A DNA stretch of 60,995 nucleotides from an uncultured archaeon (GCA_964525635.1 CAZGJX010000010.1:1-60995), one strand, 5' to 3'. Counted from the stretch's first letter, positions 145 through 20,758 are shown. Numbers and translations: made by a program. The notes: a model not told the origin generated them from the sequence alone.

Positions 145-822
145 ATGAGTATAATATATTCAATAAAAGATGAGAAGATTGTATACAATTTAATAAAAAA
201 ATATACAAAAAAAAAGCCAATCTCTCGTATCATGGATTTAACTCATTTTTTAAATTTCCAATTAAAAAATAATCAAAACTTTACTAAAGCAAAAATCTTA
301 AGGATTGTAAAAGATTTAATTAAAAAAAGAGTAATCATAATAGGTTCGAAACTTGTTAAAGATAACATATTAGAAAATCCTTTAAGACATAATATATATG
401 AATATATTGTAAATAATCCTGGTTCAACTATTTATGATCTGAGAAAAAAATTCAATGTAGGAGCTAATCAGGTAATCTGGCATTTGAACTTTTTAGTTAA
501 ATTTGAATTTGTAAAGACAATAATGATAGAAAAACATAAAGTTATATTTTCGTTTGAATCAGAACCCAAATATTATAAAATTTTTTATTATATTGCAAAT
601 GAAAAAGTAAAATTAATATTGAATGTATTTAAGGAAAAAAAGCATCCTATAAGTGCTTTAGATATTACTAATATACTTTCTATGCACTATAATACAGTAA
701 AGAAATATTTAGAGAAATTAATGGATTTTAAAATTGTGGAATTATCTAATAAAAAAAAAAAATATGTAATAAATTATGATATATATAATCAAATCATATA
801 TAGAAGAAGTAAAATTTCTTAA
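145..822 (+). CDS. Tandem winged-helix transcriptional regulator (ArsR/HVO_0163-like)
   Basis: 'LENPLRHNIYEYIVNNPGST...WHLNFLVKFEFV' and a second wHTH 'ITNILSMHYNTVKKYLEKL'. Confidence 0.75.
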   Translation: MSIIYSIKDEKIVYNLIKKYTKKKPISRIMDLTHFLNFQLKNNQNFTKAKILRIVKDLIKKRVIIIGSKLVKDNILENPLRHNIYEYIVNNPGSTIYDLRKKFNVGANQVIWHLNFLVKFEFVKTIMIEKHKVIFSFESEPKYYKIFYYIANEKVKLILNVFKEKKHPISALDITNILSMHYNTVKKYLEKLMDFKIVELSNKKKKYVINYDIYNQIIYRRSKIS

Positions 823-1038
823 CAAATTATGAAAAAATGACGTATCAAAAAAATAAATCAACTCTTATCAGAAGATGTAATACTATGGAAAATTCAATTT
901 TTGTTCAATTTGTTTATTATATCACTATTACTTTAATTATATTTATGACAAATCTATTAAAAAAAATATTTTTATATAAAATGGATTGAAAAAAGGATTA
1001 AATAAAATAAATTAGAGAAAATATAAGAAAAATATAAA

Positions 1039-4000
1039 ATGAGCGCTCCAAAACTGGATTCACGAAAAGTATTTAAGAATGGTCCATTTATCTTAGTTTT
1101 AATACTCATTTTATATATAGTTATTACCCTTTTTTTAAATTCAGGATTTTATATTTCAAAAAACTATTCTGTAAATAATTCAAGTAATATTGATAATAGA
1201 TCAATAAAAAATTCAGATTATTGGTATCTTTCACCTATTTTTATTAATGGAAGTGCAACTGGTATAGGAGCACATAACTGGACATGGGCAGTAAACCAAG
1301 AATGGTGTAATGGTTCTGGTTTATGGAATGATCAATATATAATTGAAAATATCACCATAAATGGAATGAATAATATGATTCCAATCCATATAACCGATTC
1401 TGATAAATATTTTACTATCAGAAATTGTACTCTTTATAATTCATTTTCTTATATAAATCAAGAATATTCTACCGGGGGAATTCTTTTAGAGAATGTAAGT
1501 AATGGAACAATAGAAAATAATGACTGCTTTGAAAATCGTGGAATAGGAATTATTTTAAAATATAGTAGAAATTGTACGATAAAAGAAAATATAGTTTATC
1601 TAAATGTTAGACATGGTATTACACTTTATCATAGTAATAATTGCACAATTAAAGAAAATACAGTTGATTCCAATAGATATGATGGAATAAAAATATACCA
1701 TAGTAATAATAGTATAATTAAAGAAAATACTATTGATTCCAATTCAAATGATGGAATTTCATTACAGTGGAGTAATAATATTGATGTGATTAAGAATAAG
1801 ATTAATAATATTGTGGAAAATGGGAGGGGTATCACAGGTAATACTCAGGATGCTTTTATATTTAAAAATAACATAAGTAATGTGGTAACTTATTTCGGGG
1901 ATGGTATTGAAATTGGTGGTTATAATAATCTTATTAAAAATAACATTATCTATAATTGCACTGGGGATGGAATATCTATAAAGTTCTATGAAATAATACC
2001 TAAAGTAGCTACAGAATCAATCAATAACACTATAATCGATAATAATTGTATTAATATAACAAATGATGGAATTTCAATCATGGATATGGCTCAAAATACT
2101 TTCGTAAGAAATAATAGTTTGATTAATTCCAATTCCATTGGAATAATCGATAGAGGTAATAATTCCACTTTATTTAATAATACAGTACTTTTTTCTAAAT
2201 ATGGTATTTTTATACATGGTTATGCTGAAAATGGTAATTATTCATATAATCTCATAAAAAGATGTGAGTTTGGAATATATTTTACTGGAAATGGGGAGAG
2301 TCATATAATTAAAAATAATGATTTAAAAATGTGTGGAATATTTTTGAATCAAGAAGATTCTTTAACAGAACTAACATCCTATGAAATTGATACTTCAAAT
2401 AAAGTGAATGATAATTCTATTTATTATTTTACTAATTCTACAAATTTAAGTACGGTAAATTTTACAATTTATGGTTCTCCAGGACAAATTATATTAATTA
2501 ACTGTAATAATTCAACAATTTCAAATTTTAATATAAAAAATTCATCTTATAGTATAATACTCTTATATTCAAATAATATTACTCTTAGAAATAATAATGT
2601 TCTGAATAATACACTCAGTAGTGTCTTTTTATATAATACCACTAATAGCCATTTCATTAATAATAATATTTCTTCTAATAATGGCGACGGATTAATTGTA
2701 GATAATTGTTTTAATCTTTCATTCGAATATAATTTATTTCAAAATAATGATATTAGTGGTATTTATTTAACAAGAAGTACCCTAGTGAAAATTGTAAATA
2801 ATACCTTTTCTAATAATATAATTTATGGTATTAATTTTGACGGATTATGTACTGATAATGAAATTATTAATAATACAATTACACACTATCATCAAATTGG
2901 AATAAATATCATAAATTCAGATAATTTTAATATTATAAATAATAAAATAAATGAAAGTACTTTTATTGGGCTTAATTCAGATTCTAGTGAAGATATATTG
3001 ATAAAAGATAATATAATTAACAAATGCAGTGTTGGGATCAATTTTAATCTTATCAATAACTTAAAAATAGAAAATAATATAATCTCAGATAACTCATACG
3101 ATGGAATTATAATTGCAAATTCAAAAGAAATTGAGATTATAAACAATATTATTAAAGATAATTCCTATAATGGATTACATCTAAGTAATACAAATACTAC
3201 TTTTCAATTATATAATATCATCATATATAATAACACATTCGAGAATAATCTATATTCTATATTTCTTGGATTAAATACATTTAATATTACAATTGATTCT
3301 AATTTTATTAGTTTTAGTGTTAATGGTATTCATATAGAAAATTGTTATAATTCAACTTTTAAGAGAAATAATTTTACAGACAATTTTGTTGGAATTAAAG
3401 TAATGGAAAATTCAGGAGGTAATTTATTTTATATTAATGAATTTCATAATAATATTGTACATGCGAGGGATGATGGAAGTAATAATAATTGGGATAATGG
3501 GACAATAGGTAATTATTGGGATAATTATAAGGGTGTTGATCAAAATAAAGATGGTATTTGTGATGGATATTATTATATTTCTGGAAATGCTAATTCTGTA
3601 GATCATTATCCGATTTATAAACCAGATAATGAAAAACCTGATGATGAAAATCCCTTCTATGCTATAATTACTGCTTTAATTAACAATCTTTTATCACCTA
3701 TTAGTATAATAAATGCGTCTATTATTATTAGTTGTTCAATATTGATTTACTCTCTAAACAGGAAAAAGTATCTCCCTGATTATTTTATAGGAAAGCCTGG
3801 AAGTAATTATATTTTTAAGAGTAATAATCATATATTAAATAACTTCATTAATTCAGATGAATTATTAGAATTTAGTCCTACTATTCAAAATTTTCTTGTT
3901 TCTTCTTTAAGTTCTGGAGAACTAAAAAAATTAGATCAACTAGATCTACCTATAAACGAGAAAAGTATTTTTATTGAAGAATTAACAAATCTTACTTCAA

Positions 4001-4059
4001 AAGAAAGGAAGAAAATCCTCAATGAAATGTTAAAAAGCCAAAAAAAAAAGTTTAATTGA
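1039..4059 (+). CDS. Membrane-anchored right-handed beta-helix (NosD/CASH/PbH1 repeat) protein with a short C-terminal cytoplasmic domain
   Basis: N-terminal TM; many 'N.TI.NN....N..GI.L' repeats; 'NNWDNGTIGNYWDNY.G.D...DGI.D..Y' NosD-type terminal motif; second hydrophobic segment near aa 875-905. Confidence 0.8.
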   Translation: MSAPKLDSRKVFKNGPFILVLILILYIVITLFLNSGFYISKNYSVNNSSNIDNRSIKNSDYWYLSPIFINGSATGIGAHNWTWAVNQEWCNGSGLWNDQYIIENITINGMNNMIPIHITDSDKYFTIRNCTLYNSFSYINQEYSTGGILLENVSNGTIENNDCFENRGIGIILKYSRNCTIKENIVYLNVRHGITLYHSNNCTIKENTVDSNRYDGIKIYHSNNSIIKENTIDSNSNDGISLQWSNNIDVIKNKINNIVENGRGITGNTQDAFIFKNNISNVVTYFGDGIEIGGYNNLIKNNIIYNCTGDGISIKFYEIIPKVATESINNTIIDNNCINITNDGISIMDMAQNTFVRNNSLINSNSIGIIDRGNNSTLFNNTVLFSKYGIFIHGYAENGNYSYNLIKRCEFGIYFTGNGESHIIKNNDLKMCGIFLNQEDSLTELTSYEIDTSNKVNDNSIYYFTNSTNLSTVNFTIYGSPGQIILINCNNSTISNFNIKNSSYSIILLYSNNITLRNNNVLNNTLSSVFLYNTTNSHFINNNISSNNGDGLIVDNCFNLSFEYNLFQNNDISGIYLTRSTLVKIVNNTFSNNIIYGINFDGLCTDNEIINNTITHYHQIGINIINSDNFNIINNKINESTFIGLNSDSSEDILIKDNIINKCSVGINFNLINNLKIENNIISDNSYDGIIIANSKEIEIINNIIKDNSYNGLHLSNTNTTFQLYNIIIYNNTFENNLYSIFLGLNTFNITIDSNFISFSVNGIHIENCYNSTFKRNNFTDNFVGIKVMENSGGNLFYINEFHNNIVHARDDGSNNNWDNGTIGNYWDNYKGVDQNKDGICDGYYYISGNANSVDHYPIYKPDNEKPDDENPFYAIITALINNLLSPISIINASIIISCSILIYSLNRKKYLPDYFIGKPGSNYIFKSNNHILNNFINSDELLEFSPTIQNFLVSSLSSGELKKLDQLDLPINEKSIFIEELTNLTSKERKKILNEMLKSQKKKFN

Positions 4060-4218
4060 ATATAGAAAAACATTCTGTTAAATAGTTGGAAATAATATAG
4101 CTATAAACTCAACTTTCTAAAATTATATTCTATTTTATTTTTTTATAAAATCTGCACAAAAATGATAGAAAATTTCTGCTGAATTTACTACATTTAATGG
4201 TAAATTTTACCAATCTTG

Positions 4219-4242
4219 TCAAAATTTCACTTTTTGTCCATA
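4219..4242 (+). promoter_or_regulatory. Upstream motif shared by the scaffoldin and GH5 genes (copy at 6723-6746)
   Basis: TCAAAATTTCACTTTTTGTCCATA vs TCAAAATTTCAATTTTTGTCCATA, each followed by an AT-rich TATA-like stretch; function inferred. Confidence 0.5.
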
Positions 4243-4313
4243 CGGCTTTATAAAATATATTCTCTTCACATTAGTTAAATAAATATATAAAAAAAAAAAT
4301 AGAATAAAAATAC

Positions 4314-4404
4314 AAAAAAATTAGAGGAATTTTTAAAAATGAAATATCGGAAAATTACAACTATTCTAATATTAAGCACTGTATTTATGGGATTCTACTT
4401 AACA
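4314..4404 (+). repeat. Duplicated RBS + signal-peptide cassette, copy 1 (copy 2 at 6794-6884)
   Basis: 91 bp with 2 mismatches to 6794-6884; both encode MKYRKITTILILSTVFMGF. Confidence 0.9.
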
Positions 4405-6621
4405 ATGAATATTAATTTGTCAACGCCAGAGTCTTCTATTTCTAAAACACTTAATCTATCTGGTCAAGATGGAGATGTATGGTTCAGCTCAGTATCAACT
4501 CAAACCGTTGGTGATACTTTTGAGACTGAGATCTATGTCAATACAAGTAGTCGCAAATTAGGTGCTTATGGATTTGATATTGCTTACAATGAATCCGTTA
4601 TTCAAATAGCAAATGTTAATGATGTAGTGGCTGGTGCTGAAGGATTTGTTTCTGTCGTCAATCTTCATAATGGTGATGGATTGGTTACGATAGCTGGATT
4701 TGAAGCAATGGGTACAGGCCCAAGCTTTCAACTTCACTTATTAACTATTACCTGGACCGCAGTTGGTGCAGGTAGCAGTCCATTAGATTTATCCATTCTA
4801 GATTTAGCAGATACAATTATAGAAACAATAGGTACTCCTACCGATATTGATGGTAGTGTAGTTGTAGAAGGAGGTCCTGCACAAGCTCCAGTTCTTAATT
4901 CTCTATCAGATGTTTACTATCAAGAAAGTACTACAGGACATTCAATTACTTGGACAGCAACAGATGACAATCCTACAACCTATACAGTTACTCAAGATGG
5001 AACTCAAGTAGCTTCAGGTTCATGGAGTTCTGGTGTTGGAATCACCGTGAGTGTTGATGATCTATCAGAAGGTTCTTATAACTATACCTGTACCGTTAAT
5101 GATGGAGATGGATTATCTGATTCAGACTCAGTTACTGTAAATGTAACTGTCGATCCTGTTATTGGTGGAGATGTATGGTTCAGCTCAGTATCAACTCAAA
5201 CCGTTGGTGATACTTTTGAGACTGAGATCTATGTCAATACAGGTAGTCAGAATTTAAATTTATATGCATTTATAATTGCTTACAATGAATCCGTTATTCA
5301 AATAGCAAGTAATAATGATATAGAGGCTGGTAATGAAGGGTTTGTTTCTATGGTCAGTATTGATAATGATAATGGATTGGTTGAGATCGCTGGATATGCA
5401 ACATGTACAGGCCTAGGCTCTCAACTCCACTTATTAACCATTACCTGGACTGCATTTGGTGCAGGTATCAGTTCATTAGATTTAACCATTGACGATTTAC
5501 AAGATTCAGATACAGACACAATTGGTACTCCTAACGATATTGATGGTAGTGTAGAGGTTGAAGGAGCACCTACACAAGCTCCAGTTCTTCATCAAGAAGG
5601 TACTACAGGAAATTCAATTACTTGGATAGCAACAGATGACAATCCTACAACCTATACTATAACTCAAAATGGTACGATAGTTGCAAGGGGTTCATGGAGT
5701 TCTGGTGTTGAAATCACCGTGAGTATTGATGGTCTATCAGATGGTTATTGGATCATTAACTGTACTGTTTATGATGGAGATGGATTATATGATTCAGACA
5801 CCGTTAATATAAAAGTCACTTCTACTGCTGTTGGAGATGTATGGTTCAGCTCAGTATCAACCCAAACAGTTGGAGATACTTTTGAGACTGAAATCTATGT
5901 TAACACTGGTAGTCAGAACTTAGCCGCTTATGGATTTGATATTGCTTATAATGAAGACGTTATTCAAATAGCAAGTGATGATGATGTCGAAGCTGGTAGT
6001 GAAGGATTTGTTTCTGCTGTCAATATTGATAATGATAATGGATTGGTTACAATAGCTGGATTTGAAGCAACGGGTACAGGCCCAAGCTCTCAACTTCACT
6101 TGTTAACCATTACCTGGACCGCAGTTGGCGCAGGTAGTACTTCATTAGATTTATCCATTCTAGATTTAGCAGATACAATGATAGAAACAATAGGTACTCC
6201 TAACGCTATTGATGGTAGTGTAGAGGTTGAAGGAGCACCTACACAAGCTCCAGTTCTTAATTCGCCTTCTAATGTTAATTATGTTGAAGGAGATACTGGA
6301 AATTCTATTACCTGGACAGCAACAGATGACAATCCAACAACCTATACTATAATTCAAAATGGTAGTCAAGTAGCTTCTGATTCCTGGAGTTCTGGTAATG
6401 CTATCACAATAAATGTTGATGGATTATCCCCTGGGCTATATATTTATACAATTACCGTATATGATGGAAGTGGAAACAATGCAACTGATTCTGTTTATGT
6501 TATAGTAAATAAGGTAATACATGGAGGCGGAGAGATTCCTGGATATGATTTATTTATATTTCTAGGAAGTTTATGGATTACGGTCCTTACTATGATAAAT
6601 CTAAGGAAAAGAAGACAATAA
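4339..6621 (+). CDS. Scaffoldin-like surface protein: signal peptide, 3 x (cohesin-like + Ig/PKD-like) modules, Loki-CTERM-like anchor
   Basis: Three repeats 'GDVWFSSVSTQTVGDTFETEIYVNT...AYGFDIAYNE...LLTITWTA.GAG.S.LDL.I' alternate with 'ITWTATDDNPTTY...' Ig-like units; C-terminus 'EIPGYDLFIFLGSLWITVLTMINLRKRRQ'. Confidence 0.75.
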   Translation: MKYRKITTILILSTVFMGFYLTMNINLSTPESSISKTLNLSGQDGDVWFSSVSTQTVGDTFETEIYVNTSSRKLGAYGFDIAYNESVIQIANVNDVVAGAEGFVSVVNLHNGDGLVTIAGFEAMGTGPSFQLHLLTITWTAVGAGSSPLDLSILDLADTIIETIGTPTDIDGSVVVEGGPAQAPVLNSLSDVYYQESTTGHSITWTATDDNPTTYTVTQDGTQVASGSWSSGVGITVSVDDLSEGSYNYTCTVNDGDGLSDSDSVTVNVTVDPVIGGDVWFSSVSTQTVGDTFETEIYVNTGSQNLNLYAFIIAYNESVIQIASNNDIEAGNEGFVSMVSIDNDNGLVEIAGYATCTGLGSQLHLLTITWTAFGAGISSLDLTIDDLQDSDTDTIGTPNDIDGSVEVEGAPTQAPVLHQEGTTGNSITWIATDDNPTTYTITQNGTIVARGSWSSGVEITVSIDGLSDGYWIINCTVYDGDGLYDSDTVNIKVTSTAVGDVWFSSVSTQTVGDTFETEIYVNTGSQNLAAYGFDIAYNEDVIQIASDDDVEAGSEGFVSAVNIDNDNGLVTIAGFEATGTGPSSQLHLLTITWTAVGAGSTSLDLSILDLADTMIETIGTPNAIDGSVEVEGAPTQAPVLNSPSNVNYVEGDTGNSITWTATDDNPTTYTIIQNGSQVASDSWSSGNAITINVDGLSPGLYIYTITVYDGSGNNATDSVYVIVNKVIHGGGEIPGYDLFIFLGSLWITVLTMINLRKRRQ
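4471..6510 (+). repeat. Three intragenic DNA repeats encoding cohesin+Ig modules (starts 4471, 5167, 5833)
   Basis: GGAGATGTATGGTTCAGCTCAGTATCAAC recurs at 4471, 5167 and 5833 (periods 696 and 666 nt). Confidence 0.9.
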
Positions 6622-6629
6622 TAATAATA

Positions 6630-6640
6630 TTTTTTTTTTT
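6630..6640 (+). terminator. Oligo-T archaeal-type terminator after the scaffoldin gene
   Basis: 11 consecutive T shortly after the stop codon. Confidence 0.4.
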
Positions 6641-6793
6641 CAATATTAAAATTTTAAATTATTTTTTCGTATTTAATCTGTGATAGTTTAGAAAAAATAT
6701 AACCTAATAGTGGTAAAGATTTTCAAAATTTCAATTTTTGTCCATATGCATTTATTAAAAGACTTCTCTTCAGAATTATTAAATAATTATATA

Positions 6794-6884
6794 AAAAAAA
6801 TTAGAGGAATTTTTAAAAATGAAATATCGGAAAATTACAACTATTCTAATATTAAGCACAGTATTTATGGGATTCTTCTTAACA
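6794..6884 (+). repeat. Duplicated RBS + signal-peptide cassette, copy 2
   Basis: Matches 4314-4404. Confidence 0.9.
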
Positions 6885-8534
6885 TTAAAAATTAGTGTAC
6901 CAACATCAAACATTTCTACTTCTCAACATGTAAATGCAGAACCAACTCTTCCGGCTTTAACGGTGCCAAAGATTACAGATCCTAATGATCCCCAGTATCC
7001 TTTTGAATATTCTCGCTGGATTATTGATTCAAACGGGAATAAAGTTCAATTACGTGGAGTAAGTTTGACAGATATCCATGCAATTTGGCAAGGTCATCGC
7101 TCTCATGCGGGACCTATGGATATTGAGGGTATAATTGATCTAATTGATGAAACTGGATTTAATATAAATGCAATTCGTTTACCTATTCACCCTCGGGTAA
7201 ATGATGAAACAGGACCACATGGATGGTGTTATGATGAAGATAGTCCTTTTCTTTCGCCAAGATCGACTCTTATAATGTTGAATATGACACATGCAGAGTT
7301 TTTCTCTAAAGTCATTGATCGTGCCATTCAATATTGTATCGAAAAAGGATATTATGCAATCATTGATTGGCATGGAGTAGGATATTTATTACAAGATAAT
7401 AATTTGGCAGAAACAATCGAGTTTTGGAATTATATGGTCGAACATTATGCAAACCACTCAAATGTTATTTTTGAATTATTGAACGAACCTTATTTCCCTG
7501 CTAGTGGTGGAAGAACGGGATGGGATTGTTATATAGATGTAGCTGAAGGGATCGTTAATGCAATAAGGACAGGGGATTGGAGTCCATATGTAGATCTAGT
7601 AAATCAATATAATAATACAAATTTAAGTTTTCCAAAAACCGATCCCGCAAACAATTTAATCCTTATTGCCGGACCTGATTATGCTCACTCATTACCTTAT
7701 TGTTTTAAACCCAATCCTGATGAAATACCATATGAGAGTACAAAATTTATTGATAGTCCCAATATAGCTTATGTAGCTCATATTTATCCTGCCAAATGTA
7801 CATTGGAACCAGATATACAGCTTATACCAAAATGGATGGATTATACCTTAAAATATCGTCCAGTTATTATGACAGAATGGGGATATGAAACGACCGGACC
7901 AGATCTATTGGATTGTTTTCTACAATTTGAAGAAAAAAATGCTGTTTATGGAAAAATAATGAAATCATATCTACAAAAAAATCCTAATTTAGGATGGACT
8001 GCGTGGTGTTTCGATTATTGCTATCATTCACTAATGTTTGATTGTGAATGGAATTTACTTGGCGAAGGTAAAAGTACACCAGAAACTCGTTGGCACAGTA
8101 TTGAATCTATTTATCACATAGATGTGGGGGGATATAATTGTGAAAATTATTCTGAACAGATAATTGTTGGTGGTGAGGTTGTATGGAATAATTGGACTAA
8201 TCCTTTTATCAAACATATACAGATAAATGCAGAGGATACATATGATAACTATATGGGCGCTTATTGTCGTGATTTCACTCAAGAATATCCCGATTACAAC
8301 GATGCTGCATTTATACTCGGAGATGTTAACGGGGATAGAGACGTTGATATAGTTGACGCTTTATTAATCGCTCAAGATTACTTTGGAGTGGAAAAATATG
8401 TACCCTTCTATAAAGGACAAGCGGATGTGAATATGGATGGAAACATAGATATTACTGATGCTCAATTGATTGCAGAATATTATGTAGGTATAATTGATGT
8501 GTTTCCTAGTGTTAGTTACGTACCTTTAGTATAA
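6819..8534 (+). CDS. Secreted glycoside hydrolase family 5 (cellulase-like) with C-terminal dockerin
   Basis: GH5 motifs 'QLRGVS', 'NAIRLPI', 'IIDWH', 'FELLNEP' (acid/base), 'HIY', 'MTEWG' (nucleophile), 'WTAW'; duplicated dockerin loops 'GDVNGDRDVDIVDALLIAQ' and 'ADVNMDGNIDITDAQLIAEY'. Confidence 0.88.
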   Translation: MKYRKITTILILSTVFMGFFLTLKISVPTSNISTSQHVNAEPTLPALTVPKITDPNDPQYPFEYSRWIIDSNGNKVQLRGVSLTDIHAIWQGHRSHAGPMDIEGIIDLIDETGFNINAIRLPIHPRVNDETGPHGWCYDEDSPFLSPRSTLIMLNMTHAEFFSKVIDRAIQYCIEKGYYAIIDWHGVGYLLQDNNLAETIEFWNYMVEHYANHSNVIFELLNEPYFPASGGRTGWDCYIDVAEGIVNAIRTGDWSPYVDLVNQYNNTNLSFPKTDPANNLILIAGPDYAHSLPYCFKPNPDEIPYESTKFIDSPNIAYVAHIYPAKCTLEPDIQLIPKWMDYTLKYRPVIMTEWGYETTGPDLLDCFLQFEEKNAVYGKIMKSYLQKNPNLGWTAWCFDYCYHSLMFDCEWNLLGEGKSTPETRWHSIESIYHIDVGGYNCENYSEQIIVGGEVVWNNWTNPFIKHIQINAEDTYDNYMGAYCRDFTQEYPDYNDAAFILGDVNGDRDVDIVDALLIAQDYFGVEKYVPFYKGQADVNMDGNIDITDAQLIAEYYVGIIDVFPSVSYVPLV

Positions 8535-8738
8535 ATAGAGGAAATAAGTGAAATTGACTAAAAGCTAAAATAATATTTACCTTTTTTTTTTCATTTTTGA
8601 TAATAATTACTCAAGAAAAGTGTTGGTGTAGGAGGAATTGTAGTTGTAAGTATATGATTACCTAATGATGAGTTAAAATTGAACATTTTTATAAGAATAT
8701 TGAAAAATATATAAATAAAAATTATAAAGATTACAAAT

Positions 8739-9002
8739 ATGAATAATTTAAAGAAAAATGTAAAGATAGATATAGATAACAATCATATTATTCATATAAT
8801 TGAAGAAAATCCAGTTCTTGAGAATTTAAGTAAAGTGAAAGATATAAAGCTATCTTTATTGGAGGAAGATTTCTTTGATAAAGTGAATCTAATTCAATGG
8901 CAGGATGAAGAAGAAAAACAACTTTTTATTAAAGAAATGCTTAGTTTATCGCCAGATGAGAGAGAAGAAATATTAGAGGATATAAGGAGATTTCAATATT
9001 AA
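8739..9002 (+). CDS. Small protein resembling the C-terminal cytoplasmic domain of the 1039-4059 protein
   Basis: 'EEKQLFIKEMLSLSPDEREEILED' aligns with 'NEKSIFIEELTNLTSKERKKILNE'. Confidence 0.6.
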   Translation: MNNLKKNVKIDIDNNHIIHIIEENPVLENLSKVKDIKLSLLEEDFFDKVNLIQWQDEEEKQLFIKEMLSLSPDEREEILEDIRRFQY

Positions 9003-9124
9003 CCGAAATTACATAATTTTAAAAAGAAAAAGGTGAAAGATTACCATTATTCTTTAACAAATCTTTATATTACATATCTTTTATAGGGATAGAAAACAAG
9101 TCTTTTTTTTATTTATAAATTCCT

Positions 9125-9880
9125 ATGATTTTCAAGAAAATAACGGTTGGTCCATCAGATACGAATTGTTATATTATTGGCTCCAATATCACAAATGAAA
9201 TAGCTTTAATTGATCCTGGTTTTGAACCTGAAAAAATCATTAATGAAATAAACAAAATTGGAGCGGATCTAATAGTAATATTGTTGACTCATGGACATTT
9301 CGATCATACAATGTATTTAAATAAAATCTCAGAAATTTTCCCTGACACAAATCTAATGTATAATGAAAAGGAATATAATCCACTTCAAACTGATTTAAGC
9401 GAAAGCGATCTTAAGATTTTAATCAATTTAATGGATGGAAGAAGTAATAATAACCTTGAACAAAATAATCAAGAACAACCTATGGAATTTTTACTTGAAA
9501 AAGGTTTATATACAAATATAAAGGCAGATAGATGGTTGAATGAAGGAGATATTATAAAGATTGGTGAGCTTAGCTTTACTACTTTGGAAACACCGGGCCA
9601 TTCTCCAGGAAGTTTATGCTTTTATTCTAAAGATATTAATGAAATCAGAGGTCATTTAATTGATGGCGTTATTTTTACAGGAGATCTTTTATTTAAAGGA
9701 AATGTGGGCGAATTCAATATTCCTGGTGGAAATGAAGATATCCTTTATTTAAGTATTAAGAATAAAATTATGAACAATCCTGAATTAACTGACCGCTTTA
9801 AGGTTTGTGCAGGTCATTTCGGATATACAACAATAGGTGAAGAAAGAATTCTCAATCCATTTAGGAACTATTTTACTTGA
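9125..9880 (+). CDS. MBL-fold metallo-hydrolase (glyoxalase II-like)
   Basis: 'LLTHGHFDH', 'TPGHSPGS', 'FTGDLLF', 'AGH'. Confidence 0.9.
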   Translation: MIFKKITVGPSDTNCYIIGSNITNEIALIDPGFEPEKIINEINKIGADLIVILLTHGHFDHTMYLNKISEIFPDTNLMYNEKEYNPLQTDLSESDLKILINLMDGRSNNNLEQNNQEQPMEFLLEKGLYTNIKADRWLNEGDIIKIGELSFTTLETPGHSPGSLCFYSKDINEIRGHLIDGVIFTGDLLFKGNVGEFNIPGGNEDILYLSIKNKIMNNPELTDRFKVCAGHFGYTTIGEERILNPFRNYFT

Positions 9881-10046
9881 TTTTTCTTTAAAAACATTTA
9901 ACTATCTGATAAAGATGATTTATAAATATATAAATTTTATATATAGAAAAAAAAAATATATAATAATTTTAAAAACACTAAGATATATTTATAAGTATAA
10001 TAATTATAATTATAAAATTTCAAATTCAAAAAACAAGGTGATTAAA

Positions 10047-10526
10047 ATACCTATAATAGAAGGTTGGGAACTTTCTCCAGATAGAGATGATATGTATCAG
10101 AAAATAGTGAGTAAATATCCTGTAGGTGATCCATTAATTACTTCAAAATGTAAACTTAATAATGATAATGGTTTACTTGTAGCTAGCGAAAATGGATTTG
10201 CTTGGAGATTAAAAATGGGAATGAATACTCCAATGATGTCCGCTGGAAAAAGTAAATGGATACGGTGGCATGATTTAGCTGAGATAATTCCAAAAAAACC
10301 TGGGCAAATATTGGTTAAAATCAAAGTTCGGAAAAATGGACAATTAAAACTAGATGGAAAAGGTAATGCAAAAATAAAGAAATGGAAATTCACATTAGCA
10401 AGAAATAAAGATGAAGATAAAGGCCATTTTACTAATAGAAGAGAAAAGTTCCTCAATCTTATAACAGAAATTTATAACAGTAATAAAGGTCAAGGAGATC
10501 CTCCTACAAGTGATTCAGTAATGTAA
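10047..10526 (+). CDS. Hypothetical protein (possibly PH-like); probable ATA start
   Basis: The ORF-track N-terminus from 9837 is low-complexity intergenic sequence; AGGTGA SD at 10036-10041 precedes in-frame ATA at 10047 (PIIEGWELSP...). Confidence 0.6.
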   Translation: MPIIEGWELSPDRDDMYQKIVSKYPVGDPLITSKCKLNNDNGLLVASENGFAWRLKMGMNTPMMSAGKSKWIRWHDLAEIIPKKPGQILVKIKVRKNGQLKLDGKGNAKIKKWKFTLARNKDEDKGHFTNRREKFLNLITEIYNSNKGQGDPPTSDSVM

Positions 10527-13852: not shown

Positions 13853-15019
13853 ATGTCGTCCAATGAAGATAATTACCTTAGACCTTTAATTTTAGATATT
13901 GGAAGTAATACATTTAAATTGGGATGGGCAGGTGAAGATTTTCCAGAAATTATTGCTCCCAGTATTTATGTAGATAAAACAGATTATATATTTAGTTCAG
14001 ATATTATTGAAGGTCTTGAAGATATATTTATTGATAATGATGATGATGAATATAAATATGGACATGAGGCTTTAAAATATCAAAACATTTTAAAGATTCA
14101 TGAGTTTAAAAAAGAGAATAATTTTAACATATTTAAAAAATACTTTATCTATCAATATGAAAAACTAAATATACCTTCTGAATTTTTATTCATGCAACCG
14201 ATTATTATAATAACTCCTTTTATTTTAACTGATATTGACAGGGTTAAAATTCAAAAAATCTTATTTGAAGAATTTCAATATCCCTATATATTATTTTTAC
14301 CAGATGATAAGGCGATAATATCGACATTAAAGAAAGCAGATGGTGTTATAGTAAATATGGGAGAATCTAATACATATATATCCTCAATTTATCATGGATT
14401 TACAAATATAATGGCAAGAGATATATTTCCTATTGCAGGTAAAGATCTAACAAATTATTTTCTTAATATAATTTTAAAGGGTCGAGGAGCCACAAAAAAT
14501 TTTTATATAGATAATTATTTAGCAAAGGAAATTAAAGAAAAAATGGGTTTATGTGTTTTAAATACAAAAAAAGAAAAAGCTCGAATAAAGGAAGGCTTAA
14601 CAAAATATAATAGAATCATAAATTTACCTGATAATTCCCAATTTGAAATAAATTTTGAAAGATTTCAGCTCGTTGAACCAATTTTTGATCCAAAATTAAT
14701 TCATATAGATTATTTAAGTCTTCCTGAAGTAATTACTAAGATTATAAAATTTTGGGACAGAGAAAACTGGGGTGCTCTTTTGTCAAATATCATCCTTGCG
14801 GGAGGAGCAAGTCTTTTTCCTGGTTTAAAAGAAAGATTAATATTTGAATTAAAAAAAAACTTTTCAGAACAATTAGGTGAAAAAATACAAATTCTTGCTG
14901 TATCAGGTAGAGAAAATATGAGTTGGATAGGAAGCTCCATTTTATATTCTCAAGATAAATTAGTAGGTTGGGCTAAAAATCCTATTTTAAAAGAAAACTC
15001 TGTTCAGCAAAATGAATAA
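13853..15019 (+). CDS. Divergent actin-related protein (Asgard actin/ARP family)
   Basis: 'LILDIGSNTFKLGWAGEDFP', 'IAGKDLTNY', 'AKEIKEK', 'LPD...ERFQLVEPIFDP', 'NIILAGGASLFPGLKERL', 'SWIGSSIL'. Confidence 0.88.
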   Translation: MSSNEDNYLRPLILDIGSNTFKLGWAGEDFPEIIAPSIYVDKTDYIFSSDIIEGLEDIFIDNDDDEYKYGHEALKYQNILKIHEFKKENNFNIFKKYFIYQYEKLNIPSEFLFMQPIIIITPFILTDIDRVKIQKILFEEFQYPYILFLPDDKAIISTLKKADGVIVNMGESNTYISSIYHGFTNIMARDIFPIAGKDLTNYFLNIILKGRGATKNFYIDNYLAKEIKEKMGLCVLNTKKEKARIKEGLTKYNRIINLPDNSQFEINFERFQLVEPIFDPKLIHIDYLSLPEVITKIIKFWDRENWGALLSNIILAGGASLFPGLKERLIFELKKNFSEQLGEKIQILAVSGRENMSWIGSSILYSQDKLVGWAKNPILKENSVQQNE

Positions 15020-18565: not shown

Positions 18566-20758
18566 ATGATAGTAGAAAAACAAATAGATACTAATGAAAT
18601 AGTTAAATTATTTGGAATTAATTCAACTATCTTTAAAAATTTCAGCGTTTTTTTTAAAAAAATAGGGGAATCGCAAAAATCTAATTATGATAATAATTTT
18701 ATAAAATGGAAGGAAAAATTCCTTAAAATTTATGATCAAGAATGCACACAAGAATTATTTTCAAGACATTTATATTATGTAACCATTTTGGAGCTTCTCT
18801 TAATTTCTAAAATAACTCATATTAAAAAATATGAAATAAAAGAATTATATGATATATATATTACAAATTCCATTGAATCAATATCTAATATTAAGGAATT
18901 TCACTTTTATAAATGGTTAAAAGTTAATCAGAAACTCTTTAAAGATATATATAAAGAAGTTAAAGATTTCTCATATAAAATAGGAGATTTATTTCATTCT
19001 TTATATCAGCACTTATTCTTTTTATCAGCCAGGCATAGAATTGGTGAATTTTATACCCCCTCAAATCTTGTAAAAAAAATGGTTAAAGATTCTTATGTAT
19101 TTGGTCAAAAAGTATTAGATCCTTCATGTGGATCAGGGAATTTTATTTTAGAAATTATAATAAAAATATTGAATTCAAAAGAAAGTGATCAATCTAAATT
19201 AAAAGCAATAAGAAACATTTATGGTTTTGATATCAATCCGCTAGCAACCTTAACTGTTAAAACTAATTTATCTTTATTATTTTATGAAAACTTTCCAGAT
19301 TCTGACAATAAAAATACCTATATCAATATTTTTCTAATTGATTCATTATTTGAAAATGAGGAAAAAAATATTGATAAAAAGATAAAGAATCTTTATAATT
19401 CTTTTGATTTAATTATTGGAAATCCTCCATGGTTAACCTATAAAGATTTAAATGATAAATCATATCAAAATAAAATTCGCCATTTAGCCGAAAGTTTAGG
19501 TATTAAACCAGATAGTCAATATATTACTCATATAGAATTGGCAACAATTTTCTTCTATAATATACCTCAAAGATTCCTAAAATTAAATTGTACTATTTTT
19601 TTTGTTATGCCCCAAAGTGTTTTAAATGGTGATCATTGCACAAAATTTAGAGCATTTACATATTTTAATGATTTAGAAATATGGGATTTTCCCAAAAAAT
19701 ATTTTTTTAATGTTAATCATATTTGTTTAAAAGCTAAATATATAGGAGATCAAGATCCTATCATTGGGAATAAATATCCAATAAAATCTAAAATATTTGA
19801 TAATGAGCTAAAATTAAAAAAGAAAACAAATTATTCGACACTAAAAATAAGTCATAATGGAGCTTTATTAATTTTACCCAAAGAAGAACTAAGGTATCTT
19901 CAAAATATCACTTACAGTGATTATAAAGAAAAGTTTTCTCAAGGAGCAACACTAGTTCCAAGAACCCTTGTATTTTTTCAGATTATTGACACAACAGATA
20001 ATCATTATATTATATCTTCTGATAAAGATATTCAATCAAGATCTAAGAATGAATGGATATACTCATTTAAGAACATTGAAATTGAAAAAGAATTTCGTTT
20101 TATAACATTTTTGAACTTAGATCTAGTGCCGTTTGTTTTAAAAAAGAAAAGAAATGCATTTATACCTATTAAAAAAGATGATTTTACTTTTGATCTTGAA
20201 TATTTAAAAAAATTCCCAAAAGCATTTGAATTTTATAAAGAAATAAACAAAATTTATAAATTAAAGAAAAAAAAAACAAGCAGAATTAATGATTTATTTT
20301 CAAATTTAAATTATTGGAATAAATTATTAAAACAAGGAGATTATAAGCTTTATACGGTTGTGTACAATGCAAGTGGTTCAAATATTAAATCAGCTGTAAT
20401 TAAACAATATGAGGAAAAAATCATAATTGGATCAGAAAATTACTATTATTCGACAGATTCTAAATATGAAGCTTATTATCTCTCAGCTATTTTAAATTCA
20501 CGACATTTAAATAGATATATTAATGTAATTAAAAGCTCACGCCATATTCATAAAAGACCATTTCATTTCCCTATTCCTATATACAGCGAAAATAATGAAA
20601 ATCATTACAAACTTGCTAAAAAAGGTATTAAATACACTACATATGTAGGTGATTTACTTCTTAATAATCCAGATATTACAACCAATAAAATTAGAACTGT
20701 TCTGAATGAAAATTTTAATCAATTAGATAATCTAACAAAAAAAATAGTTTTCAAATAG
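18566..20758 (+). CDS. N6-adenine DNA methyltransferase (type IIG-like M+S architecture)
   Basis: 'GEFYTP', 'VLDPSCGSGNF', 'FDINP', 'IIGNPPW'; C-terminal TRD-like 'YLSAILNS'. Confidence 0.85.
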   Translation: MIVEKQIDTNEIVKLFGINSTIFKNFSVFFKKIGESQKSNYDNNFIKWKEKFLKIYDQECTQELFSRHLYYVTILELLLISKITHIKKYEIKELYDIYITNSIESISNIKEFHFYKWLKVNQKLFKDIYKEVKDFSYKIGDLFHSLYQHLFFLSARHRIGEFYTPSNLVKKMVKDSYVFGQKVLDPSCGSGNFILEIIIKILNSKESDQSKLKAIRNIYGFDINPLATLTVKTNLSLLFYENFPDSDNKNTYINIFLIDSLFENEEKNIDKKIKNLYNSFDLIIGNPPWLTYKDLNDKSYQNKIRHLAESLGIKPDSQYITHIELATIFFYNIPQRFLKLNCTIFFVMPQSVLNGDHCTKFRAFTYFNDLEIWDFPKKYFFNVNHICLKAKYIGDQDPIIGNKYPIKSKIFDNELKLKKKTNYSTLKISHNGALLILPKEELRYLQNITYSDYKEKFSQGATLVPRTLVFFQIIDTTDNHYIISSDKDIQSRSKNEWIYSFKNIEIEKEFRFITFLNLDLVPFVLKKKRNAFIPIKKDDFTFDLEYLKKFPKAFEFYKEINKIYKLKKKKTSRINDLFSNLNYWNKLLKQGDYKLYTVVYNASGSNIKSAVIKQYEEKIIIGSENYYYSTDSKYEAYYLSAILNSRHLNRYINVIKSSRHIHKRPFHFPIPIYSENNENHYKLAKKGIKYTTYVGDLLLNNPDITTNKIRTVLNENFNQLDNLTKKIVFK

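What the first reader, a model, noticed from the sequence alone, without database searches (positions are those of the whole stretch)
4339..8534. Mini-cellulosome-like pair: anchored three-cohesin scaffoldin plus GH5-dockerin
Seen: the scaffoldin-like gene (3 cohesin-like modules spaced by Ig-like domains, with an IPGY-TM-basic tail) is directly followed by a secreted GH5 with both catalytic glutamate motifs and a two-loop Ca-binding dockerin. The region is visibly more GC-rich than its flanks. Established: cohesin-dockerin assembly of glycoside hydrolases defines bacterial cellulosomes; archaeal cohesins and dockerins (e.g. Archaeoglobus fulgidus) are known but regarded as non-cellulosomal. 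Inference: a surface enzyme-display system for polysaccharide breakdown in an Asgard archaeon, built from probably bacterial modules joined to native export and anchor signals.
Basis: partly seen in the sequence, partly recalled or inferred. Interest (0 to 1): 0.82.

Follow-up and report, generated by a model that had tools for sequence, protein, structure and literature searches.

The report
Asgard archaeal cellulosome-like scaffold and cellulase
An Asgard archaeon encodes a membrane-anchored protein with three sockets (cohesins) next to a cellulase-type enzyme carrying the matching plug (dockerin). The pair is one locus of a genome-wide enzyme-docking system of a kind I found described only for bacteria and fungi; docking and activity are untested.

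Summary
Window 4339-6621 encodes signal peptide, three (cohesin + Ig-like) units and an IPGY-TM-basic tail. Window 6819-8534 encodes a secreted GH5 with all eight family-invariant residues and a two-repeat dockerin.

A high-confidence AlphaFold model of the repeat (pLDDT 96.5) matches only cohesins in the PDB (TM about 0.8 to type I cohesins).

- It is not a self-contained "mini" pair. The genome holds 25 dockerin ORFs (GH5, GH9-CBM3, GH16, proteases, a solute-binding protein) and 18 cohesin modules in 10 open frames (9 genes, one frameshifted).
- The GC rise comes from codon positions 1 and 2, that is, from amino-acid make-up. GC3 is host-like, so it is no sign of recent transfer.
- The Loki-CTERM model is only matched below its cut-off.

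New here:
- In a sister species the orthologous GH5 is fused covalently to a four-cohesin anchored scaffoldin.
- Both genes carry the same promoter, leader and signal-peptide cassette, with a 21-nt element found only 9 times in the genome.
- The closest non-Asgard cohesins and GH5-dockerins are from Spirochaetales MAGs.

Other agents of this scan already reported the same system from other contigs of this genome. I found no paper describing it.

The parts
145..822 (+). TrmB-like winged-helix regulator gene (225 aa), candidate regulator of the cluster
   Evidence: Pfam TrmB scores 26.8 bits (cut-off 25.6) and HTH_24 24.5 bits. A 79% identical orthologue lies beside the scaffoldin cluster of sister genome G159. 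There it is preceded by the 21-nt element.
889..908 (+). Decayed copy of the 21-nt upstream element before the NosD-like gene
   Evidence: The window reads AAAATTCAATTTTTGTTCAA where the orthologous G159 site holds the intact element.
1039..4059 (+). NosD/right-handed beta-helix membrane protein (1006 aa), conserved neighbour of the scaffoldins
   Evidence: Pfam Beta_helix 1.8e-57 and NosD 2.2e-52. It is 54% identical to the G159 neighbour. A 1011-aa ORF sits amid the C110 scaffoldins behind the same element; I took it for a NosD-type paralogue from position and length only and did not scan it.
4222..4242 (+). 21-nt conserved element AAATTTCACTTTTTGTCCATA, 4 nt upstream of a TATA-like box (4247-4256)
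   Evidence: It is invariant in 7 aligned upstream regions from two species. The 4.45-Mb genome holds 9 copies at 2 mismatches or fewer and none at 3.
4339..6621 (+). Scaffoldin gene: signal peptide, 3 x (cohesin + Ig-like), IPGY-TM-basic tail
4471..4869 (+). Cohesin module 1
   Evidence: PF00963 scores 24.6 bits when scanned alone. My own-genome HMM gives 200 bits.
4870..5166 (+). Ig-like (PKD/K319L-like) spacer 1
   Evidence: Weak hits to several Ig families. ChitinaseA_N scores 24.1 bits in the whole-protein scan.
5167..5562 (+). Cohesin module 2
   Evidence: 80% identical to module 3 and 192 bits with my own HMM. No Pfam hit when scanned alone.
5563..5832 (+). Ig-like spacer 2
   Evidence: It is the second copy of repeat family D2. 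K319L-like PKD hit at E 0.016.
5833..6231 (+). Cohesin module 3 (the one modelled)
   Evidence: PF00963 scores 32.5 bits. AF2 pLDDT is 96.5. Foldseek gives TM 0.75-0.83 to type I cohesins 6kgd, 1aoh, 1ohz and 1g1k.
6232..6516 (+). Ig-like spacer 3
   Evidence: K319L-like PKD scores 29.7 bits, above the cut-off of 27.
6517..6618 (+). C-terminal sorting/anchor tail (GGGE-IPGY-hydrophobic-RKRRQ)
   Evidence: NF033507 Loki-CTERM scores 15.8 bits, below its cut-off of 19.9. The same tail type ends at least 33 ORFs of the genome, including all C110 and C29 scaffoldins.
6726..6746 (+). Second copy of the 21-nt element (1 mismatch) with a TATA-like box at 6751-6760, before the GH5-dockerin gene
   Evidence: (repeat D5).
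6819..8534 (+). GH5-dockerin gene; its first 19 residues are identical to those of the scaffoldin
   Evidence: repeat D4: 4314-4446 and 6794-6926 are 87% identical.
7026..8015 (+). GH5 catalytic domain. Acid/base E223 is at 7485-7487 and nucleophile E353 at 7875-7877
   Evidence: PF00150 matches at 3.8e-25. R120, H185, N222, E223, H321, Y323, E353 and W396 are invariant in alignment A3. The best structural matches are endo-1,4-beta-glucanases.
8316..8507 (+). Type I-like dockerin, two Ca-binding repeats (DVNGDRDVDIVD and DVNMDGNIDITD)
   Evidence: PF00404 matches at 6.5e-9. PDB dockerins 4uyp_B and 5m2o_B match at 2e-6 to 3e-5. It aligns with the other 24 dockerins of the genome.

Best explanation
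The two genes encode one docking station and one client of a cellulosome-like surface complex of an Asgard (Promethearchaeota/Lokiarchaeia-type) archaeon.

Shown:
- The 760-aa protein has an N-terminal Sec-type signal, three type-I-like cohesins held apart by Ig-like domains, and the genome's own IPGY-TM-basic C-terminal tail.
- The 571-aa protein has the same signal peptide, a GH5 with an intact retaining active site, and a C-terminal two-repeat dockerin.
- Both genes have their own copy of one promoter/leader cassette, with a 21-nt element that is almost private to the scaffoldin genes.
- The genome holds 25 dockerin ORFs (five GH5, three GH9-CBM3, one GH16, four peptidases, a solute-binding protein, a peptidase inhibitor and others) and 18 cohesin modules.

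Inferred:
- The scaffoldin is exported and held in the membrane by its tail, with or without processing.
- Each cohesin binds one dockerin in a Ca-dependent way, so up to three enzymes sit together at the cell surface.
- The neighbouring GH5 is one of them and cuts beta-1,4-glucan.
- Expression of scaffoldins and neighbouring enzymes is co-ordinated through the 21-nt element, perhaps by the adjacent TrmB-like regulator.
- The modules came from bacteria, with Spirochaetales-like cellulosomes the nearest named relatives. This happened long enough ago for codon usage to have equilibrated.
For: - Cohesin fold: AF2 pLDDT 96.5; the top ~40 listed Foldseek hits are all cohesins; PF00963 is above its cut-off for modules 1 and 3.
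- Dockerin and GH5.
- System size: 25 dockerin ORFs with their domain content; 18 cohesin modules in 10 open frames, i.e. 9 genes with one frameshifted.
- Domain-fusion link: in sister genome G159 the GH5 orthologue (42-49% identity) is the N-terminus of a 1521-aa protein. That protein continues as four cohesin-Ig units and the same anchor, next to a 1008-aa scaffoldin, the TrmB-like gene and the NosD gene.
- Shared cassette.
- Native anchor.
- Host context: actin and gyrase A/B lie on the same contig, and GC3 is host-like.
- Nearest non-Asgard relatives: Spirochaetales scaffoldins with a CBM3-like start and 8-9 cohesins, and Spirochaetales GH5-dockerins at 35-37% identity.
Against: - No binding or activity data exist, and I could not run a complex prediction.
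- This dockerin is among the most divergent of the 25: its Pfam score is the 18th of 25, and repeat 2 reads DITDAQL where the family reads DIVDALL. Its partner may therefore be another cohesin.
- The scaffoldin has no CBM, and no GH48 was found in this genome. Crystalline-cellulose attack is therefore not assured.
- Many dockerin proteins are not CAZymes.
- No exosortase/archaeosortase (PF09721) was found, so processing of the tail is open.
- The GH5 model is only moderate (pLDDT 72), and the substrate cannot be read from it.
- The cohesin tree is weakly resolved and most of its rows have no taxon.
Confidence: 0.75

Rival explanations
1. This is a general cohesin-dockerin surface organiser that is not a cellulose-degrading machine, as proposed for ANME and Archaeoglobus. 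It would tether proteases, binding proteins and assorted glycanases for scavenging soluble or microbial polymers (EPS, beta-glucans, proteins).
For: - Sixteen of the 25 dockerin ORFs are not CAZymes: S8 and C25 peptidases, SBP_bac_5, a chagasin-type inhibitor, a beta-propeller and proteins of unknown function.
- The scaffoldin has no CBM.
- No GH48 was found in this genome.
- Archaeal cohesin-dockerin systems described so far are regarded as non-cellulosomal, and dockerin-bearing solute-binding proteins occur in ANME (PMC9012536).
Against: - Three GH9-CBM3-dockerin proteins and a GH5-fn3-CBM3-dockerin have the classic cellulosomal architecture.
- GH48-dockerin proteins that also carry this cohesin type occur among the Lokiarchaeota-named and unnamed relatives.
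- A GH9-CBM3-dockerin gene and this GH5-dockerin gene share the scaffoldins' private promoter element.
- Bacterial cellulosomes also carry proteases and inhibitors (established knowledge).
Confidence: 0.2
2. The cohesin-like modules are adhesion or cell-envelope (S-layer-like) modules that bind something other than dockerins. The adjacency to a dockerin enzyme would then be incidental.
For: - The cohesin fold is a plain beta-sandwich, and sequence similarity to solved cohesins is weak (profile E 0.5).
- Module 2 has no Pfam hit.
Against: - All of the top ~40 listed structural matches are cohesins.
- Multi-copy cohesins and multi-copy dockerins occur in the same genomes.
- The GH5 is fused to the scaffoldin in the sister species.
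- Cohesin followed at once by dockerin occurs on enzymes of related genomes.
Confidence: 0.04
3. The locus is bacterial DNA mis-binned or mis-assembled into an archaeal MAG.
For: - The closest non-Asgard relatives are bacterial.
- GC is locally raised.
Against: - The same 61-kb contig carries an actin homologue, gyrase and other host-like genes.
- GC3 matches the genome.
- The leader and intergenic DNA are as AT-rich as the host.
- The tail is the genome's own sorting signal.
- The locus recurs in three other genomes of the genus from independent assemblies.
Confidence: 0.01

Closest known systems
Simple clostridial cellulosomes with type I cohesins (Ruminiclostridium cellulolyticum CipC, Clostridium acetobutylicum CipA, Acetivibrio thermocellus CipA)
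   Same: - A multi-cohesin scaffoldin; the best structural matches are 6kgd, 1g1k, 1aoh and 1ohz at TM about 0.8.
- Enzymes with C-terminal two-repeat dockerins.
- GH5 and GH9-CBM3 clients.
- Near-symmetrical dockerin repeats, as in dual-binding-mode dockerins.
   Different: - The host is an Asgard archaeon.
- The scaffoldin has no CBM3a and no X-dockerin.
- Cohesins alternate strictly with Ig-like domains.
- The scaffoldin is anchored directly by an archaeal IPGY-TM-basic tail rather than through SLH or sortase anchoring proteins.
- There are several small (1-3 cohesin) anchored scaffoldins rather than one large one.
- No GH48 was found in this genome.
- Sequence identity to solved cohesins is only 11-21%.
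Uncultured Spirochaetales MAG scaffoldins and GH5-dockerins (MBN2533187.1, MBN2737270.1 and relatives)
   Same: - They are the closest named non-Asgard relatives of these cohesins, at about 100 bits per module.
- They are also the closest named relatives of this GH5 (35-37% identity), and they carry the same DALLIAQYYVGL-type dockerin.
   Different: - They begin with a CBM3-like module and carry 8-9 cohesins.
- They end in a cohesin without the PGY tail.
- They have bacterial signal peptides, some with a lipobox-like Cys.
- In many of their GH5 proteins the dockerin is N-terminal.
Non-cellulosomal archaeal cohesin-dockerin proteins (Archaeoglobus fulgidus cohesin 2xdh; ANME scaffoldin-like proteins)
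   Same: - Archaeal host and cohesin fold; 2xdh matches at TM 0.81.
- Dockerin-bearing solute-binding proteins occur in both (PMC9012536).
   Different: In those systems no cellulases are attached and no cellulose role is proposed (PMC9012536). Here GH5, GH9-CBM3 and GH16 enzymes carry the dockerins.

Membership tests
Cellulosome (cohesin-dockerin multi-enzyme complex) | Scaffoldin with two or more cohesin modules | tested here: met
   There are three modules. The AF2/Foldseek model has a cohesin fold, and PF00963 is over its cut-off for two of them.
Cellulosome (cohesin-dockerin multi-enzyme complex) | Enzymes carrying dockerins with two Ca-binding repeats | tested here: met
   PF00404 matches P0002 and 24 further ORFs of the genome. 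The alignment shows both D-x-N-x-D loops.
Cellulosome (cohesin-dockerin multi-enzyme complex) | Cellulases among the dockerin enzymes (GH5, GH9, GH48) | tested here: inconclusive
   Five GH5 and three GH9-CBM3 are present. GH48 was not found in this genome. It is present with a dockerin in Lokiarchaeota-named and unnamed relatives.
Cellulosome (cohesin-dockerin multi-enzyme complex) | Cellulose-binding module (CBM3a) on the scaffoldin | tested here: not met
   No CBM is found in P0001 or in the C110 scaffoldins. CBM3 sits on the enzymes instead.
Cellulosome (cohesin-dockerin multi-enzyme complex) | Attachment to the cell surface | tested here: inconclusive
   No SLH or LPXTG-type anchor is present. 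An IPGY-TM-basic tail stands in its place, shared with at least 33 ORFs. Surface location itself is untested.
Cellulosome (cohesin-dockerin multi-enzyme complex) | Specific Ca-dependent cohesin-dockerin binding, and cellulose hydrolysis by the complex | not testable with these tools
   This needs a complex prediction or bench assays.
Glycoside hydrolase family 5 | (beta/alpha)8 fold with the eight conserved residues, including the NEP acid/base and the TEW-type nucleophile | tested here: met
   PF00150 matches at 3.8e-25. R120, H185, N222, E223, H321, Y323, E353 and W396 are invariant. Foldseek matches Cel5A-type endoglucanases.
Loki-CTERM sorting domain (NCBIfam NF033507) | Score over the curated cut-off | tested here: not met
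   The score is 15.8 bits against a cut-off of 19.9, E 0.013. Heimdall-CTERM scores 14.8 against 24. The motif, its position and its recurrence in the genome fit the class.
Loki-CTERM sorting domain (NCBIfam NF033507) | A partner sorting enzyme (archaeosortase/exosortase family) in the genome | tested here: not met
   PF09721 was not found at E 0.01 or better in a genome rated 100% complete. Only one model was tried.

The most novel reading that the evidence does not exclude
A genus of Asgard archaea builds a true cell-bound cellulosome. Its parts would have been taken up long ago from Spirochaetales-like bacteria, re-mounted on the archaeal C-terminal sorting signal, and placed under one sugar-responsive TrmB-type regulator acting through a private 21-nt operator. 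The same enzyme would be either plugged in (this genome) or welded on (the sister species). That would make these Asgard archaea primary degraders of plant or algal fibre rather than only syntrophic scavengers.
Probability: 0.45. Interest if true: 0.88.

Novelty: new variant of a known kind. Interest (0 to 1): 0.78.

Why it matters
- Every paper I found treats cellulosomes as a bacterial (and fungal) invention, and archaeal cohesins and dockerins are treated as non-cellulosomal (PMC9012536). A 2024 survey of cellulosome-displaying organisms covers bacteria only.
- A working archaeal version would widen the known hosts of this machine.
- It would give Asgard archaea an unexpected role as polymer degraders in anoxic sediments.
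- It would be a clear case of a whole bacterial extracellular system adopted and re-anchored by the lineage related to the eukaryotic ancestor.
- It would offer new, very divergent cohesin-dockerin pairs for designer scaffolds.
- The plug-in versus fused GH5 in two sister species is a natural experiment on why docking is used at all.

Tried and rejected
- The whole-protein Pfam scan of the scaffoldin gave no cohesin hit. Scanning single modules and the six-frame search did.
- Sequence and profile searches of the PDB did not reach cohesins (best E 0.5). Only structure did.
- GC island as a mark of recent transfer: rejected, because GC3 is host-like.
- GH48 and exosortase/archaeosortase PF09721 were not found in the genome.
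- The search for related loci with the cohesin alignment failed for lack of a conserved stretch. The single-module scan found only two sister MAGs.
I therefore could not check the binning or the neighbours of the Spirochaetales scaffoldins.
- The cohesin tree has 135 modules over 136 columns (FastTree). It puts all Asgard modules but one into a single group inside a mostly unnamed, partly Spirochaetales radiation. Support is 92 and not starred, and the root is assumed on Halovivax. I treat it as a hint, not a demonstration of donor or direction.
- I looked for dyad symmetry in the 21-nt element and saw none, so I make no claim that it resembles known TrmB sites.
- Six literature searches joining cellulosome, dockerin, scaffoldin or cellulose terms with Asgard, Loki or Promethearchaeota terms found no description of this system.

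Full report
**What is there**

The window is G000:C10, a 61-kb contig of a 4.45-Mb genome in 245 contigs with 26.8% GC.

P0001 reads as signal peptide, then three units of about 230 aa, then a tail that ends ...GGGEIPGYDLFIFLGSLWITVLTMINLRKRRQ. Three DNA repeat families with a period of 666-696 nt confirm the threefold unit.

P0002 has GH5 (PF00150, 3.8e-25, residues 70-399) and Dockerin_1 (PF00404, 6.5e-9, residues 500-554). By sequence it matches solved GH5 endoglucanases and solved dockerins.

**Are the repeats cohesins?**

The whole-protein Pfam scan listed only Ig/PKD-like families. PDB sequence and profile searches did not reach cohesins either. The six-frame genome search, however, gave PF00963 32 bits at 5851-6141. 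Scanned alone, module 1 scores 24.6, module 3 scores 32.5 and module 2 scores nothing, against a cut-off of 24.1.

I aligned 16 modules of this genome (A1) and folded module 3. The model has pLDDT 96.5 and pTM 0.88. The top ~40 listed Foldseek PDB hits are all cohesins. Type I modules of C. acetobutylicum, A. thermocellus and R. cellulolyticum match at TM 0.75-0.83 with 11-21% identity, and the Archaeoglobus fulgidus cohesin 2xdh at 0.81. The spacers are Ig-like (K319L-like PKD).

**The GH5-dockerin**

In an alignment with 21 relatives (A3) the eight canonical GH5 residues are invariant: R120, H185, N222, E223 (NEP), H321, Y323, E353 (TEW) and W396. The AF2 model is moderate (pLDDT 72). It has a good barrel and dockerin, and a disordered stretch at 428-466. 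Its best structural matches are endo-1,4-beta-glucanases such as Cel5A, CjCel5C and SdGluc5_26A, at TM about 0.6 per target. The substrate cannot be fixed from this.

The dockerin has two D-x-N-x-D loops and belongs to the one homogeneous dockerin family of the genome. It is among that family's more divergent members, with repeat 2 reading DITDAQL.

**Not a mini-system**

The genome has 25 Dockerin_1 ORFs over the Pfam cut-off. Their other domains are as follows:
- GH5 five times, with PKD, CBM4_9, fn3-CBM3, or a cohesin.
- GH9-CBM3 three times.
- GH16 with an F5/8 type C domain.
- Two S8 and two C25 peptidases.
- An SBP_bac_5 solute-binding protein, a chagasin-type inhibitor, a beta-propeller and several proteins of unknown function.

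An HMM iterated from the three window modules finds 18 cohesin modules in 10 open frames:
- C10: three modules (this locus).
- C110: three anchored scaffoldins with 3, 2 and 2 modules, behind a GH9-CBM3-dockerin gene.
- C90: three modules plus a dockerin on a C25 peptidase.
- C29: two single-cohesin anchored proteins.
- C57: one module.
- C47: one module split by a frameshift.

GH48 was not found.

**Distribution**

Among 400 genomes of the phylum, the cohesin profile hits 7 and Dockerin_1 hits 15. All four genomes of the genus, plus one genome of another family in the same order, have both in many copies. Elsewhere the hits are single. These genomes are related, so this is a pattern and not a statistic.

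**Host and context**

Sister genomes are titled Promethearchaeota archaeon (bin106, Zod_Metabat.578). Homologues are named Lokiarchaeota or Promethearchaeota. The contig also carries an actin homologue (13853-15016, 8e-43), gyrase A and B, a radical SAM enzyme and other ordinary genes.

The IPG[YF]-hydrophobic-basic tail ends at least 33 ORFs of the genome, so it is a native signal. The NCBIfam Loki-CTERM model is matched only below its cut-off (15.8 against 19.9 bits), and no PF09721 enzyme was found.

**The GC rise**

It is real. Against 2421 ORFs of 200 aa or more, the scaffoldin is at the 98.6th percentile for GC but only the 76th for GC3 (0.187; genome mean 0.172, sd 0.04). The GH5 gene is at the 94.8th and 89.6th percentiles. 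The excess sits in GC1 and GC2. It reflects the Gly/Ala/Asp/Thr/Val-rich proteins, not recent import.

**New links between the two genes**

(a) Fusion in the sister species. In G159 the orthologue of this GH5 (42-49% identity over residues 1-489) is the N-terminus of a 1521-aa protein that continues as four cohesin-Ig units and the same anchor. It lies next to a 1008-aa four-cohesin scaffoldin, a 79% identical TrmB-like gene and the NosD-like gene. A second such fusion is in the databases (P0111). Covalent fusion in one species and a dockerin in the other argues that the GH5 works on the scaffoldin.

(b) Shared cassette. Both genes are preceded by the same cassette of about 230 nt: a 21-nt element, a TATA-like box, a GAGG and the first ~30 codons (repeats D4 and D5; alignment A2). 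The first 19 residues are identical.

(c) Rarity and placement of the 21-nt element. It occurs 9 times in the genome at 2 mismatches or fewer and not at all at 3. It stands before the C10 scaffoldin, this GH5, the C110 GH9-CBM3-dockerin, the three C110 scaffoldins, the 1011-aa ORF on C110 (taken as NosD-like by position and length, not scanned) and two other sites. In G159 it precedes the two scaffoldin genes, the TrmB-like gene and the NosD gene. In the window a decayed copy stands before NosD, and the contig begins about where the TrmB copy would be. That the TrmB-like protein binds it is my hypothesis only.

**Origin**

The profile search of 1.84 billion representatives gives 1389 relatives, 93 of them at E 1e-30 or better, with up to 8-14 matched stretches per protein. 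The best named non-Asgard hits are two Spirochaetales MAG proteins. They start with a CBM3-like module, carry 8-9 cohesins and lack the PGY tail. Halovivax cohesin proteins are far weaker.

The nearest relatives of the GH5 outside the genus are GH5-dockerin proteins at 34-37% identity, the named ones again Spirochaetales.

A FastTree of 135 modules nests the Asgard modules in this radiation but is poorly supported. Transfer from bacteria to Asgard is the economical reading given the narrow Asgard distribution, but the direction is not shown.

**Comparison with what is known**

The system works like a simple clostridial cellulosome. It differs in five respects:
- The host domain.
- Direct anchoring of each small scaffoldin by an archaeal tail.
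- Strict cohesin-Ig alternation.
- No scaffoldin CBM.
- No GH48 in this genome.

Archaeal cohesin-dockerin systems described so far (A. fulgidus, ANME) are regarded as non-cellulosomal (PMC9012536). No paper in the library links cellulosomes with Asgard archaea, and a 2024 survey treats bacteria only. Other agents of this scan reported the same system from other contigs of this genome. I re-derived the architecture independently before reading those notes, and they are not independent evidence.

**Verdict**

The GC argument is wrong.
- Docking of this GH5 on this scaffoldin is likely but untested.

Noticed in passing
window 4222-4242 and 6726-6746; G000 C110:116, 2833, 5486, 7342, 10652; C31:35751; C82:2423: A 21-nt element AAATTTCACTTTTTGTCCATA lies just 5' of a TATA-like box. 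It occurs 9 times in the genome, almost only before scaffoldin genes and their neighbours, and it is conserved in two sister species. It is a likely operator of a small regulon.
   Followed up: partly
window 145-822: A TrmB-like winged-helix regulator gene is conserved (79% identity) beside the scaffoldin cluster in sister genome G159, where the 21-nt element precedes it. It is a candidate sugar-responsive regulator. The contig starts about where the window's own copy of the element would lie.
   Followed up: partly
window 1039-4059; L046 (G000 C110) 7457-10492: In the window and in G159, a large NosD/right-handed beta-helix membrane protein accompanies the scaffoldin genes behind the same element (decayed in the window). 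On C110 a 1011-aa ORF sits in the same position behind the element, but I did not scan it against Pfam. The role of these proteins in the system is unknown.
   Followed up: partly
L089 (G159:C214) 3726-8291, minus strand: The sister species encodes a 1521-aa protein made of GH5, four cohesin-Ig units and the anchor. It is an enzyme-bearing scaffoldin orthologous to the window's separate GH5-dockerin.
   Followed up: yes
window 13853-15019: An actin-family protein (Pfam Actin 8e-43), as expected of an Asgard archaeon. It is a useful marker that the contig belongs to the host.
   Followed up: no
proteins P0109, P0112-P0114, P0117 (Spirochaetales MAGs and unnamed metagenome proteins): These are large scaffoldins with a CBM3-like start and 4-9 cohesins of the same subfamily, together with GH5-dockerin proteins, in uncultured Spirochaetales. 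They suggest a spirochaetal cellulosome, which I did not look into further.
   Followed up: no
G139, G158, G159, G160 loci listed (e.g. G139:C782:1594-2181, G159:C209:12292-12894): Many enzymes of related genomes end in a cohesin followed at once by a dockerin. Such a tail could let enzymes chain onto each other. In this genome the C47 copy is split by a frameshift.
   Followed up: no
window 18566-20758: An Eco57I/MmeI-type restriction-modification methylase domain protein (730 aa).
   Followed up: no
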